Assembly (NCBI RefSeq): GCF_013167455.1
Contig: NZ_CP038328.1
From: Escherichia coli O157:H7
GTDB taxonomy: Bacteria > Pseudomonadota > Gammaproteobacteria > Enterobacterales > Enterobacteriaceae
Strand: one strand, 5' to 3'
Length of the DNA stretch: 64,000 nt
Shown here: positions 21,701 through 27,700 of the stretch, piece after piece
Layout: each line of letters starts with the position of its first letter
Position numbering within the stretch: position 1 is the stretch's first letter
Made by a program: the position numbers

Positions 21701-24700
21701 AGCGCATTATTGAGTGCTGAAACTGCGCTGGAATTGCTGGCTCCCGAGATCGCCGCAAAAGTACGTTTGTGTGCTGCGCCGTTGGTCGAAGGTACACTGG
21801 CAGCAACTGTCAGCGCGGCCTCGGGGGCGGAGATCGACAAAGTTATCTTTGACGCCATGCATGCGCTGGAAGCCAAACGTGAACAACTGGGTTTACCGTC
21901 CTCCGACACTGAAATCTCTGACTCATGTCCTGCGTACGATGAAGAAGCCCGTTCTCTGGCGGTGGTCATTAAAAACCGTAACGGCCTGCACGTCCGTCCG
22001 GCCTCCCGGCTGGTTTATACCTTATCGACATTTAATGCCGATATGTTGCTGGAAAAAAACGGCAAATGCGTCACACCGGAGAGTATTAACCAGATTGCGT
22101 TACTACAAGTTCGCTATAACGATACGCTGCGCCTGATTGCGAAAGGGCCAGAAGCTGAAGAGGCACTGATCGCTTTCCGTCAGCTGGCTGAAGATAACTT
22201 TGGTGAAACGGAGGAAGTTGCTCCACCTACTCTGCGTCCCGTTCCGCCTGTTTCGGGTAAAGCCTTTTATTATCAACCAGTTTTATGTACGGTACAGGCA
22301 AAATCACCCCTGACCGTGGAAGAAGAACAGGAACGATTACGCCAGGCCATTGACTTCACGTTATTAGATCTGATGACGTTAACAGCAAAAGCAGAAGCCA
22401 GCGGGCTTGACGATATTGCCGCAATCTTTTCTGGTCACCATACACTGTTAGATGATCCGGAACTGCTGGCGGCGGCAAGCGAACTCCTTCAGCACGAACA
22501 TTGCACGGCAGAATATGCCTGGCAGCAAGTTCTTAAAGAACTTAGCCAGCAATACCAGCAACTGGATGATGAATATCTACAAGCTCGCTATATTGATGTG
22601 GACGATCTTCTGCATCGCACCCTGGTCCACCTGACCCAAACGAAAGAAGAACTCCCGCAGTTTAACTCGCCAACTATTCTACTGGCGGAGAACATTTATC
22701 CCTCCCCAGTACTGCAACTGGATCCGGCGGTTGTAAAAGGTATCTGCCTTAGCGCCGGAAGTCCGGTATCCCACAGCGCCCTGATCGCCCGTGAACTGGG
22801 GATTGGCTGGATTTGCCAGCAGGGTGAGAAACTGTATGCGATACAACCAGAAGAAAAGCTAACGCTGGACGTTAAAACGCAACGTTTCAACCGTCAGGGT
22901 TAAGCCACCGTTCGGATGGCATCGTTCTGATGTCATCCGGCAATTTACTCAGCACTAATGTTTTTTAACTACCTGTTATATTTTTCACCAATTTATGATG
23001 ATTTTTCTTCGCTAATCGCGAACCAAACGACGCTGGCTGGCTAATAAACAGACGTTATTTGATCACTCTATTTCGCCGTTATTTATCCCTTTAATTCCCT
23101 TTTCTAAAATGCCTGACAGTTCGCAGAATGAGATTTCGATCATGCAGCTAGTGCGATCCTGAACTAAGGTTTTCTGATACTTGAATACCGTTTTATTCGG
23201 TTTCGCCTAAGGAGAATGATTGATGAAATCCCCCGCACCTTCTCGCCCGCAAAAAATGGCGTTAATTCCAGCCTGCATCTTTTTGTGTTTCGCTGCGCTA
23301 TCGGTGCAGGCAGAAGAAACACCGGTAACGCCACAGCCGCCTGATATTTTATTAGGGCCGCTGTTTAATGATGTGCAAAACGCCAAACTTTTTCCGGACC
23401 AAAAAACCTTTGCCGATGCCGTGCCGAACAGCGATCCGCTGATGATCGGATGCAGCAAAACCAGAGCGGATTTGATCTGCGCCATTTCGTTAACGTCAAT
23501 TTCACCCTGCCGAAAGAGGGCGAGAAATATGTTCCGCCAGAGGGACAGTCACTGCGCGAACATATTGACGGACTTTGGCCGGTATTAACGCGTTCTACCG
23601 AAAACACCGAAAAATGGGATTCTCTGTTACCGCTGCCGGAACCTTATGTCGTGCCAGGCGGACGTTTTCGCGAGGTATATTACTGGGACAGTTACTTCAC
23701 CATGTTAGGACTTGCCGAAAGCGGTCACTGGGATAAAGTCGCGGATATGGTGGCCAATTTTGCTCATGAAATAGACACTTACGGTCATATTCCCAACGGC
23801 AACCGCAGTTACTATTTAAGCCGCTCGCAGCCGCCCTTCTTTGCCCTGATGGTAGAGTTACTGGCGCAGCATGAAGGCGATGCCGCATTGAAGCAATACC
23901 TGCCGCAAATGCAAAAAGAATATGCTTACTGGATGGACGGTGTTGAAAACCTGCAAGCCGGACAACAGGAAAAACGCGTTGTAAAACTTCAGGATGGTAC
24001 CCTTCTCAACCGCTACTGGGACGATCGCGATACGCCACGACCAGAGTCATGGGTGGAAGATATTGCCACCGCTAAAAGCAATCCGAATCGACCTGCCACT
24101 GAAATTTACCGCGACCTGCGCTCTGCTGCTGCGTCTGGCTGGGATTTCAGCTCGCGCTGGATGGACAATCCGCAGCAACTAAATACCTTACGCACCACCA
24201 GCATCGTACCGGTCGATCTGAACAGCCTGATGTTCAAAATGGAAAAAATCCTTGCCCGCGCCAGCAAAGCTGCCGGAGATAACGCGATGGCAAACCAGTA
24301 CGAAACACTGGCAAATGCCCGTCAAAAAGGGATCGAAAAATACCTGTGGAACGATCAACAAGGCTGGTATGCCGATTACGACCTGAAAAGTCATAAAGTG
24401 CGCAATCAGTTAACCGCGGCCGCCCTGTTCCCACTGTACGTCAATGCGGCAGCGAAAGATCGCGCCAACAAAATGGCGACGGCGACGAAAACTCATCTGC
24501 TGCAACCCGGCGGCCTGAACACCACGTCGGTGAAAAGTGGGCAACAATGGGATGCGCCAAATGGCTGGGCACCGTTACAGTGGGTCGCGACAGAAGGATT
24601 ACAAAACTACGGGCAAAAAGAGGTGGCGATGGACATTAGCTGGCACTTCCTGACCAATGTTCAGCACACCTATGACCGGGAGAAAAAGCTGGTGGAAAAA

Positions 24701-27700
24701 TATGATGTCAGCACCACCGGAACGGGGGGCGGCGGTGGCGAATATCCATTACAGGATGGCTTTGGCTGGACCAATGGCGTGACGCTGAAAATGCTGGATT
24801 TGATCTGCCCGAAAGAGCAACCGTGTGACAATGTTCCGGCGACGCGTCCACTCAGTGAATCAACAACACAGCCGGTAAAACAAAAAGAGGCGGAACCTAC
24901 GCCTTAACTTTGCTGTATATCGAGCAATGCCATTATGTGCATAAAATTGGCATTGCTCTTTTTTCGCCACGAAATGCCCCCCATTCTACGGTCTATGCTT
25001 TTATTTTCTTATATCAGAGAAGATTTTAATTTTATTTTATTTTATCAATTTGTTAATCAGTACACCTCTATTTATATTTTTCGCCACTCCGCCATTCTCC
25101 CTGACAATTTTCTTGTGGAACAAAGTGTTATTTAAGCAACAAGCAAATCATTCTGTCTCTTTAGACAAATTTTGACATCAAACATGATTTTTTTCGATAT
25201 ATATGTAAATATATAGCGGTTTTAATTATCAGGATATAACTTATGTCACTAACCAGACGGAGGTTTACACAGATTCTTGCGTCGACGTTGTTCCTGCATC
25301 ATCTGCCTTCTTTTGCACAATCAGTCAAATTCTGGGCCTCACTGACGCTTCCCGAAGCCCAAAACATTACACGCATCGTCAGCGCAGGTGCGCCCGCCGA
25401 TTTGCTATTGCTGGCTGTCGCGCCAGAAAAAATGGTCGGTTTTTCCTCTTTTGATTTTGCCCGTCAGGCATTAATTCCATTGTCAGAGCACATTCGCCAG
25501 TTACCCAGGCTGGGACGACTCGCCGGGCGCGCCAGCACACTCTCGCTGGAAGGGCTTATGGCGTTACATCCCGATTTGGTCGTTGATTGCGGCAATACGG
25601 ATGAAACCTGGATCTCCCAGGCACGGCAGGTTAGCGAACAGACACAAATACCCTGGTTATTGCTTAACGGGAAACTGGCGCAATCAGCAGAACAGTTAAC
25701 AACGCTTGGCAAAACGTTAGGCGAAGAGCATCGCGCCGCAGAACAAGCCAATCTCGCCAGCCGCTTCGTTGGTGAAGCTCAGGCATTCGCCGCCTCACCC
25801 GCCGCTAACCTCCGCTTTTATGCTGCGCGCGGCCCTCGAGGGCTGGAGACGGGCTTAAAGGGTTCGTTGCATACCGAGGCGGCGGAATTATTAGGTTTGC
25901 ACAACGTCGCGCAAATAGCCGATCGCCAAGGCCTGACACAGGTTTCCATGGAAAATCTCCTGCGCTGGCAGCCGGATATTATTCTGGTTCAGGAGGCCGT
26001 TACTGCAGATTTTATTCGTCGTGATCCTCTCTGGCATGGCGTGAAAGCCGTTGCAGAACAACGCATCTTATTTTTAAGTGGCTTGCCCTTTGGCTGGCTG
26101 GATGCCCCACCGGGAATCAACCGTCTTCTGGGATTACGCAGACTTCACGCCTGGCTGGATCCCGCCATCAATCGCCAGTTTAAAAGTGACATGCAGCATT
26201 ACGCCCAACTGTTCTGGCATTGTTCACTCAGTGACGCCGACTATCAAAAATTGGTGGCGACCTAATGAGAATCGTAAACGGATGTATTTTGCTGCTGGCA
26301 GCTATCAGTATCACTTTTGCCGCCGTAAGTGGGGCTTATCATCTCGATATGCAGCAACTGCTGGCGCTAATTCTTCGTCAAGAAAATGTTCCTGTGCAGG
26401 AACAAATTGTCTTCTGGCAAATCCGCGTGCCGCGTATTCTTGCTGCGCTGTTACTGGGCGCGGCGCTGGCAGGAGCCGGAACCACCTATCAGGGAATGTT
26501 GCGTAATCCCTTAGTTTCACCGGATATTTTAGGCGTCTCCGCCGGTGCCGGACTTGGTGCCTGCACGGCAATTCTGTGGGGATTATCCATTGTTTACATC
26601 CAGCTGTACGCATTTTGTGGCGGGCTGATGGTGGTCGCGGGCGTCTGGTTGATTACGCGTCGGGTGACCCGCCACGATCCGATCTTAACCCTGGTGCTGG
26701 TAGGCATCGCGTTAGGAACGTTGTGCGGAGCGGGGATATCGCTAATTAAAACGCTGGCCGATCCTTACACCCAGTTACCGTCAATTACCTTCTGGTTGCT
26801 GGGGGGACTGTCCACCGTGACCTTACGCGATCTCTGCTATGCTGCACCGATCATTCTCATAGGCTCCTTGCCCCTGTTTTTTCTCCGCTGGCGCATGAAT
26901 TTACTCACGCTTTCCGACGACGAAGCCCGTTCGCTGGGACTGAACGTGACGCGTCTGCGCTTTGTATTGATTGTCTGCGCCACACTAATCACCGCCAGTA
27001 CGGTAGCAATAGCGGGCATAATTGGTTGGGTCGGCCTGGTCGTTCCGCACATTGCCCGCTTGTTGACCGGTCATAACCATCAGCAGCTGTTGCCCATGGC
27101 AATGTGTACTGGCGCGATTCTGCTCCTGCTTACCGATACGCTGGCACGCAGCATTGGAACAACAGAAATCCCACTTGGCATTCTGACCGCTTTTGTTGGC
27201 GCACCGTTTTTCCTGCTTTTGTTGTTACGCGGAGGTCGCCAGTGACTTTGCTTGCCGTCCGTCATGCGTCTCTGGGTTACTCCCGCCATCCGGTGCTACG
27301 CGACGTGTCCTTCACCCTGTCGCAAGGAACAATTTGTTGTCTGTTAGGAGCCAATGGTTGCGGCAAAACCACACTCATGCGCTCCATTCTTGGCGTTATA
27401 CCGTTATTAAAAGGCGAGGTCTTACTGGATAGCCTCCCTGTGCAGACACTCAGCCATCGCCAGCGCGCGCAGGCTATTGCCTGGGTGCCGCAGGCGCACG
27501 ACGGTATTTTTGCTTTTAGTGTGCTGGATATGGTGTTGATGGGCCTGGCCCCCACCATAGGCGCTTTTTCCGTTCCCGGTAAGCAAGAACGCCTGAAAGC
27601 CACGGAGCAACTGGAAAAGCTGGGCATTTTGCATCTGGCGGCACGACGCTGGAATACGCTTAGCGGCGGTGAACGTCAGCTGGCTTTAATCGCCCGTGCA

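What the first reader, a model, noticed from the sequence alone, without database searches (positions are those of the whole stretch)
23223..24907. treA (periplasmic trehalase) is frameshifted between the signal peptide and the catalytic domain
The signal peptide and first about 75 residues read in one frame and run into a stop at 23588. The rest of the trehalase ([18 protein letters not shown]... to the C-terminus) is intact in a different frame starting at 23450. Compared with the TreA sequence I remember (…DPLMILADYRMQQNQ…), about 13 nt are missing right after the codon at 23445–23447. Any product from the second frame would lack an export signal.
Basis: partly seen in the sequence, partly recalled or inferred. 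Interest (0 to 1): 0.5.

Follow-up and report, generated by a model that had tools for sequence, protein, structure and literature searches.

The report
Known treA frameshift pseudogene, O157:H7
The periplasmic trehalase gene treA in this E. coli O157:H7 window is knocked out by a real 13-base deletion shared by the O55:H7/O157:H7 genomes examined; public annotation already flags it as a pseudogene, so it is genuine but ordinary.

Summary
The window is E. coli O157:H7, identical to EDL933 over the 9.9 kb compared. treA (23223-24907) lacks exactly 13 nt (ATCCTTGCTGATT) relative to intact alleles. The junction lies at 23444-23447 and cannot be placed more exactly because of a 3-nt ATC microhomology. 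Intact alleles carry two near-identical 9-mers 13 nt apart at this spot (CTGATGATC / CTGATTATC), which fits a slippage deletion. The result is ORF1 (signal peptide, 45 mature residues, 46 out-of-frame residues, stop at 23586-23588) and ORF2 (485 aa from ATG 23450, with no Shine-Dalgarno sequence and no signal peptide). It is not an assembly error: the exact junction occurs in 217 of 5,426 complete E. coli genomes. Every serotyped carrier listed is O157:H7 or O55:H7, and the O55:H7 CB9615 pseudogene is 1685/1685 identical. No complete genome holds an intact copy of this allele; the nearest intact alleles are 99.5-99.6% identical (O145:H28 and others). RefSeq already annotates the gene as "frameshifted", and Zhang et al. 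2007 noted that Sakai ECs1701 and ECs1702 together equal treA. Apart from the deletion the gene is undamaged. Predicted consequence, not tested here: no periplasmic trehalase. The finding is already known and of low interest.

The parts
23223..24907 (+). treA pseudogene (periplasmic alpha,alpha-trehalase, GH37), 1685 nt instead of 1698 nt
   Evidence: 100% identical to EDL933 treA, which RefSeq annotates as 'frameshifted' with the same extent. NCBIfam TreA matches both ORFs.
23209..23214 (+). Native Shine-Dalgarno AAGGAG, 8 nt upstream of the treA ATG
   Evidence: Read directly from the sequence.
23223..23312 (+). Sec signal peptide coding region (residues 1-30, ...SVQA|EETP)
   Evidence: The crystallised mature TreA chain 2jf4_A starts at residue 31 of the repaired protein.
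23223..23588 (+). ORF1: 75 native residues (signal peptide plus 45 mature residues), then 46 out-of-frame residues, stop TAA at 23586-23588
   Evidence: NCBIfam TreA profile positions 1-80 match residues 1-76 only.
23444..23447 (+). Deletion junction: 13 nt (ATCCTTGCTGATT or an equivalent register) missing. ATC microhomology sits inside imperfect 9-bp direct repeats (CTGATGATC/CTGATTATC, 13 nt apart in intact alleles).
   Evidence: Alignment; repeat geometry in BL21 treA at nt 217 and 230. In one search the ungapped alignment ran through the repeat.
23450..24907 (+). ORF2: residues 81-565 of TreA (485 aa), with no signal peptide and no Shine-Dalgarno sequence upstream (…gctgatgatcgg ATG)
   Evidence: NCBIfam TreA 1111.7 bits, profile positions 85-568. 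The Pfam Trehalase domain spans residues 55-532 of the repaired protein, so ORF2 lacks its first ~26 positions.

Best explanation
This is a genuine loss-of-function allele shared by the O55:H7 and O157:H7 genomes examined. A single 13-nt deletion removed codons 76-79 plus one base of treA. It most likely arose by replication slippage between two near-identical 9-mers 13 nt apart, in a common ancestor of O55:H7 and O157:H7. Ribosomes that start at the native, well-placed Shine-Dalgarno/ATG make a 121-aa product: signal peptide, 45 native residues and 46 nonsense residues. It would be exported and has no catalytic domain. The remaining 485 codons have no export signal and no ribosome-binding site, and they lie inside a translated region, so little or no trehalase should be made and none should reach the periplasm. 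Predicted phenotype: no periplasmic trehalase activity, hence no growth on trehalose at high osmolarity and no recapture of trehalose that leaks out during osmotic stress. Trehalose use at low osmolarity through TreB/TreC, and cytoplasmic TreF, would not be affected by this lesion; these genes are outside the region examined. Shown here: the deletion, its repeat context, its distribution and its derived status. Inferred: the slippage mechanism, the lack of ORF2 translation and the phenotype.
For: Exactly 13 nt are missing relative to intact alleles, and the repaired gene is a clean 565-aa ORF. Imperfect direct repeats CTGATGATC/CTGATTATC lie 13 nt apart in the intact allele. The exact 51-nt junction is present in 217 of 5,426 complete genomes; every serotyped genome among the 60 rows shown is O157:H7 or O55:H7, including CB9615, DEC5E and 493/89. 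CB9615 treA is 1685/1685 identical. No intact copy of this allele exists in the collection; the best intact match is 99.6%, and O145:H28 is 99.5%. RefSeq says 'frameshifted' in EDL933 and CB9615. Sakai ECs1701 and ECs1702 'together are homologous to' treA (Zhang 2007, PMC1890555). The native start has AAGGAG; ATG 23450 has no SD. The break falls inside Pfam PF01204, which spans residues 55-532. TreA biology (periplasmic, osmotically induced, needed for trehalose use at high osmolarity) is established knowledge: Boos et al. 1987 and 1990, as cited in PMC11228248.
Against: No expression or enzyme data for O157:H7 were found in the searchable literature. Apart from the deletion the gene shows no decay: 0 nonsynonymous and 6 synonymous differences from the closest intact allele. 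This does not distinguish a young pseudogene from a retained ORF2. These genomes differ too little to decide: CB9615 and the window show 8 mismatches in 13,354 nt, which predicts about one change in 1.7 kb.
Confidence: 0.93

Rival explanations
1. Sequencing or assembly artefact: the 13 nt are present in the organism but were dropped from this assembly.
For: None beyond the general possibility. Short indels are a common error class in some long-read assemblies.
Against: The identical junction is present in 217 complete genomes deposited under many different accession series and strain sets, and no O157/O55:H7-type allele without the deletion was found. A 13-nt loss flanked by direct repeats is not a typical homopolymer-type error.
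Confidence: 0.01
2. Leaderless cytoplasmic trehalase: ORF2 (485 aa from ATG 23450) is translated and folds, giving the cell a second cytoplasmic trehalase alongside TreF in place of the periplasmic one.
For: ORF2 is fully intact and retains 485 of 565 residues. More distant solved trehalases (7e9u, 7e9x) align with TreA only from residue 85 onward, so the conserved core is inside ORF2. ORF2 matches the TreF profile at positions 98-545 of 549. The intergenic region upstream of treA is present at full length (319 nt) and differs from strains with a functional gene only by point substitutions.
Against: There is no Shine-Dalgarno sequence before ATG 23450, and the ATG lies inside ORF1, which is translated from a strong native start in another frame. 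ORF2 lacks the first ~26 positions of the Pfam domain and residues 31-80 of the crystallised mature enzyme. Zhang 2007 report that lineage II O157:H7 strains lack the whole block, so it is dispensable. There is no power to detect purifying selection.
Confidence: 0.05
3. Recoding: a -1 ribosomal frameshift in the ORF1/ORF2 overlap (23370-23588) restores a signal-peptide-bearing, near full-length TreA.
For: ORF2 is in the -1 frame relative to ORF1, and its frame is open from 23372 onward (the last upstream stop is TGA at 23369). One in-phase A_AAG tetramer lies at 23513.
Against: No canonical X_XXY_YYZ slippery heptamer lies in phase anywhere in ORF1. A slip at 23513 would replace 27 native residues with 22 out-of-frame residues inside the Pfam domain. 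Intact orthologues need no frameshift, so the arrangement is a derived lesion and not a conserved recoding site.
Confidence: 0.01

Closest known systems
E. coli K-12/B periplasmic trehalase TreA (GH37; PDB 2JF4, 2JG0, 2JJB, 2WYN)
   Same: Same gene at the same chromosomal position downstream of dhaKLM. The repaired protein matches the crystallised mature chain over residues 31-565. The differences from BL21 are 10 residues, all in the C-terminal tail, at positions 548-562.
   Different: 13 nt are missing after codon 75, so the signal peptide and the catalytic domain are in different frames. The gene is a pseudogene here.
treA pseudogene as already annotated in O157:H7 EDL933 (EDL933_RS09250), Sakai (ECs1701+ECs1702) and O55:H7 CB9615 (G2583_RS07460)
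   Same: Sequence identical to EDL933 and CB9615, with the same 1685-nt extent and the RefSeq note 'frameshifted'. The Sakai split is described by Zhang et al. 2007.
   Different: Nothing; this is the same allele.
Cytoplasmic trehalase TreF
   Same: ORF2, which has no leader, matches the TreF NCBIfam profile at positions 98-545 of 549 (616.8 bits). If it were made, it would be cytoplasmic like TreF.
   Different: ORF2 scores far higher against TreA (1111.7 bits). It lacks the N-terminal region that TreF retains (profile positions 1-97) and has no translation signals of its own.

Membership tests
TreA, periplasmic alpha,alpha-trehalase (NCBIfam NF009774; Pfam PF01204, GH37) | Sequence match above the curated family cut-off | tested here: met
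   ORF2 scores 1111.7 bits against a cut-off of 560. ORF1 covers profile positions 1-80. The repaired protein matches PF01204 at 1-511 of 512, E=3e-180.
TreA, periplasmic alpha,alpha-trehalase (NCBIfam NF009774; Pfam PF01204, GH37) | Conserved genomic position (dhaM-treA) | tested here: met
   The same neighbours are seen in EDL933, CB9615, O145 RM9872, AST217 and BL21.
TreA, periplasmic alpha,alpha-trehalase (NCBIfam NF009774; Pfam PF01204, GH37) | Sec signal peptide contiguous, in frame, with the catalytic domain (needed for a periplasmic enzyme) | tested here: not met
   The 13-nt deletion puts the signal peptide (ORF1) and residues 81-565 (ORF2) in different frames.
TreA, periplasmic alpha,alpha-trehalase (NCBIfam NF009774; Pfam PF01204, GH37) | Trehalase activity in the periplasm | not testable with these tools
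   This needs an enzyme assay on osmotic-shock fluid. No published data for O157:H7 were found.
Pseudogene (derived, lineage-specific inactivation) | A disabling lesion absent from orthologues in related lineages and present in a restricted set of related genomes | tested here: met
   The junction is in 217 of 5,426 genomes, and every serotyped one listed is O157:H7 or O55:H7. O145:H28 and all other close alleles are intact.
Programmed -1 ribosomal frameshift gene | In-phase slippery heptamer X_XXY_YYZ in the overlap, conserved across orthologues | tested here: not met
   There are no in-phase heptamers in ORF1, and orthologues are single ORFs.

The most novel reading that the evidence does not exclude
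Loss of periplasmic TreA was not neutral. Either ORF2 is expressed at a low level as a leaderless cytoplasmic trehalase, or removing periplasmic trehalose hydrolysis changed osmoprotection or surface-structure regulation in the O55:H7/O157:H7 ancestor. In ExPEC, treA mutants make fewer type 1 fimbriae (PMC11228248 and Pavanelo 2018, cited). From my own knowledge, not tested here, O157:H7 does not express type 1 fimbriae.
Probability: 0.06. Interest if true: 0.35.

Novelty: already known. Interest (0 to 1): 0.08.

Why it matters
It matters little beyond bookkeeping. The deletion is a clean, stable marker for O55:H7/O157:H7 genomes, and it predicts a simple metabolic difference: no periplasmic trehalase, so no trehalose use at high osmolarity. 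That difference should be built into metabolic models and phenotype expectations for EHEC O157:H7. It also illustrates microhomology-mediated gene loss. Together with the neighbouring dhaR/ycgV deletion, the IS insertion in ycgR and the methyltransferase stop codon, it shows that this chromosomal neighbourhood is decaying in O157:H7.

Tried and rejected
(1) The first junction query (63 nt; 20 nt left arm, 43 nt right arm) did not separate carriers from non-carriers. In intact alleles the ungapped alignment extended through the imperfect repeat, giving 79-87% coverage. I replaced it with a 51-nt query whose two arms stay below the 28-nt megablast seed, which gave a clean count of 217.

None exists among the complete genomes; the best match is 99.6%.

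(3) Five literature searches looked for a phenotype, an expression result or an explicit description, followed by look-ups in eight papers. Only Zhang et al. 2007 mentions the split. No enzymatic or growth data for O157:H7 were found. Zhou et al. 2010 (O55:H7 versus O157:H7) does not mention treA in the main text, which is expected because both lineages share the lesion.

(4) Programmed frameshifting was considered and rejected, because there is no slippery heptamer.

(5) The promoter/terminator consensus scan of 22800-25300 found nothing above the shuffled expectation and added nothing.

(6) A selection test (dN/dS) was considered, but these genomes differ too little to give it any power.
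Full report
**What is in the sequence**

The window between 23100 and 25100 carries two overlapping ORFs on the + strand.
- ORF1 runs from 23220/23223 to 23588. It begins [34 protein letters not shown]…NSDPLMI and then reads 46 residues with no trehalase similarity, up to TAA at 23586-23588.
- ORF2 runs from 23450 to 24907 (485 aa) and begins [18 protein letters not shown]….
- The NCBIfam TreA model NF009774 matches ORF1 residues 1-76 to profile positions 1-80. It matches ORF2 residues 1-484 to positions 85-568, at 1111.7 bits against a cut-off of 560.

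So the two ORFs are the two halves of one treA gene, with about four profile positions missing between them.

**The lesion**

Alignment with intact treA from strains AST217 and BL21(DE3) shows a single 13-nt gap. The intact sequence is …GATCCGCTGATG[ATCCTTGCTGATT]ATCGGATGCAG…, and the window reads …GATCCGCTGATGATCGGATGCAG….
- ATC occurs at both edges, so the junction can be placed anywhere from 23444 to 23447.
- In the intact allele the site consists of two near-identical 9-mers exactly 13 nt apart: CTGATGATC at gene nt 217 and CTGATTATC at nt 230.
- This geometry is what replication slippage or microhomology-mediated deletion would produce. That mechanism is an inference.
- Re-inserting the 13 nt gives a clean 1698-nt ORF encoding a 565-aa protein.

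**Identity of the window, and whether the lesion is real**

The 1.9-kb region is 100% identical to many E. coli O157:H7 chromosomes. Window 19100-29000 is identical to EDL933 NZ_CP008957.1.

To count carriers I used a 51-nt junction query (23421-23471). In intact alleles each arm gives at most a 27-nt exact run, below the megablast seed, so only carriers can hit.
- It hit 217 of 5,426 complete genomes, all at 100% identity.
- Every serotyped genome among the 60 rows shown is O157:H7 or O55:H7. They include O55:H7 CB9615 and DEC5E, and also 493/89 and DEC4E.
- The full-length query had 218 records at 99% identity or better. I did not track down the one-record difference.

An assembly artefact is therefore excluded.

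**When it arose**

- In O55:H7 CB9615 the gene is also annotated as frameshifted and is 1685/1685 identical to the window. The deletion therefore predates the O55:H7/O157:H7 split.
- A synthetic repaired allele finds no 100% match in the collection. The closest intact alleles are 99.6% (miscellaneous isolates) and 99.5% (O145:H28 and others). No sequenced complete genome retains an intact copy of this allele.
- O145 RM9872 has an intact treA in the same context.
- Zhang et al. [quoted passage not shown] They also reported that lineage II O157:H7 strains have lost the whole block ECs1691-ECs1705, including these ORFs. The already dead gene was later deleted outright in part of the serotype.

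**State of the rest of the gene**

Apart from the deletion there is no decay.
- The repaired protein has 0 nonsynonymous and 6 synonymous codon differences from the closest intact allele.
- It has 1 nonsynonymous and 9 synonymous differences from O145 RM9872.
- This does not show that ORF2 is maintained. CB9615 and the window differ at only 8 of 13,354 aligned bases around treA, so about one substitution would be expected in the gene. There is no statistical power.
- The upstream intergenic region is present at full length and differs from strains with a functional gene only by point substitutions. One substitution, at 23208, lies directly 5' of the AAGGAG Shine-Dalgarno sequence and is shared with CB9615.

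**Consequences**

*What the sequence shows*
- The native start has a good ribosome-binding site: AAGGAG at 23209-23214, 8 nt before the ATG. Translation from it gives a 121-aa product made of the signal peptide, 45 mature residues and 46 out-of-frame residues.
- The crystallised mature TreA (2jf4_A) begins at residue 31 of the repaired protein, which confirms the length of the signal peptide.
- The Pfam Trehalase domain spans residues 55-532. The break at residue 75/76 is therefore inside the domain, and ORF2 lacks its first ~26 positions.
- ATG 23450 has no Shine-Dalgarno sequence (…gctgatgatcgg ATG) and lies within the translated ORF1.

*What I infer*
- Little or no ORF2 product is made, and none of it is exported.
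- From established TreA biology (periplasmic, induced at high osmolarity, required for trehalose use at high osmolarity; Boos et al. 1987 and 1990, as cited in PMC11228248), O157:H7 should lack periplasmic trehalase. This lesion does not touch the other trehalose genes, which are outside the region I examined.
- No experimental test of this in O157:H7 was found.

**Rival readings**

- Assembly error is excluded, as set out above.
- Programmed -1 frameshifting is rejected. ORF2 is in the -1 frame and its frame is open from 23372, but no in-phase X_XXY_YYZ heptamer exists. The only A_AAG tetramer, at 23513, would leave 22 out-of-frame residues inside the domain. Orthologues are single ORFs.
- A leaderless cytoplasmic trehalase made from ORF2 cannot be excluded on sequence alone. 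More distant solved trehalases align with TreA only from residue 85 onward, and the TreF profile matches ORF2. However, ORF2 has no translation signals, and Zhang 2007 report the whole block missing from lineage II strains. I put this reading at about 5%.

**Verdict**

The feature is a real 13-nt microhomology deletion pseudogene that is already annotated and shared by the O55:H7 and O157:H7 genomes examined. Novelty: already known. Interest: low.

**Side observations in the same neighbourhood**
- A 3154-bp deletion at 19413|19414 removes dhaR and part of ycgV. It is absent in O55:H7 and was already described for Sakai by Zhang 2007.
- A 1310-bp IS3-family element at 32768-34077 splits ycgR.
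- A methyltransferase gene in the adjacent iron-uptake island has an internal stop.
- cvrA is truncated in both O55:H7 and O157:H7.

Noticed in passing
window 19413|19414: A 3154-bp deletion relative to O55:H7 CB9615 (record 1514393-1517546). It removes nearly all of dhaR, which RefSeq names the dihydroxyacetone kinase operon transcriptional regulator, and the C-terminal part of the ycgV autotransporter. RefSeq calls the remnants incomplete pseudogenes. dhaKLM remains intact just upstream of treA. Zhang 2007 already reported that the corresponding K-12 segment is absent from Sakai but present in lineage II strain FRIK 920.
   Followed up: partly
window 32768-34077: A 1310-bp IS3-family insertion sequence (transposase with programmed frameshift; the size fits IS629) splits the flagellar brake gene ycgR, apparently with a 3-bp target duplication. 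It is absent in O55:H7 CB9615 and is annotated as two ycgR fragments in EDL933.
   Followed up: partly
window 28010-28822: The class I SAM-dependent methyltransferase gene in the iron-ABC/modD/TonB-receptor island downstream of treA (OI#55/S-loop#83) is annotated 'internal stop' in EDL933. It is intact in O55:H7 CB9615 and O145 RM9872.
   Followed up: no
window ~35944-37614: cvrA (potassium/proton antiporter) is annotated as truncated, missing its C-terminus, in both EDL933 and O55:H7 CB9615. This is another pseudogene shared by the two serotypes in the same neighbourhood.
   Followed up: no
window 23208: A single-base difference (T here and in CB9615; A in BL21, AST217 and environmental isolate 23S01245-7) lies immediately 5' of the treA Shine-Dalgarno AAGGAG. 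It has no obvious consequence, given that the gene is dead.
   Followed up: no
E. coli genome collection (not in the window): 103 of 5,426 complete genomes have no treA match at all. This group should include lineage II O157:H7, which Zhang 2007 report as lacking the block. Strain 644-PT8 carries two copies of the pseudogene region (places_in_record = 2).
   Followed up: no
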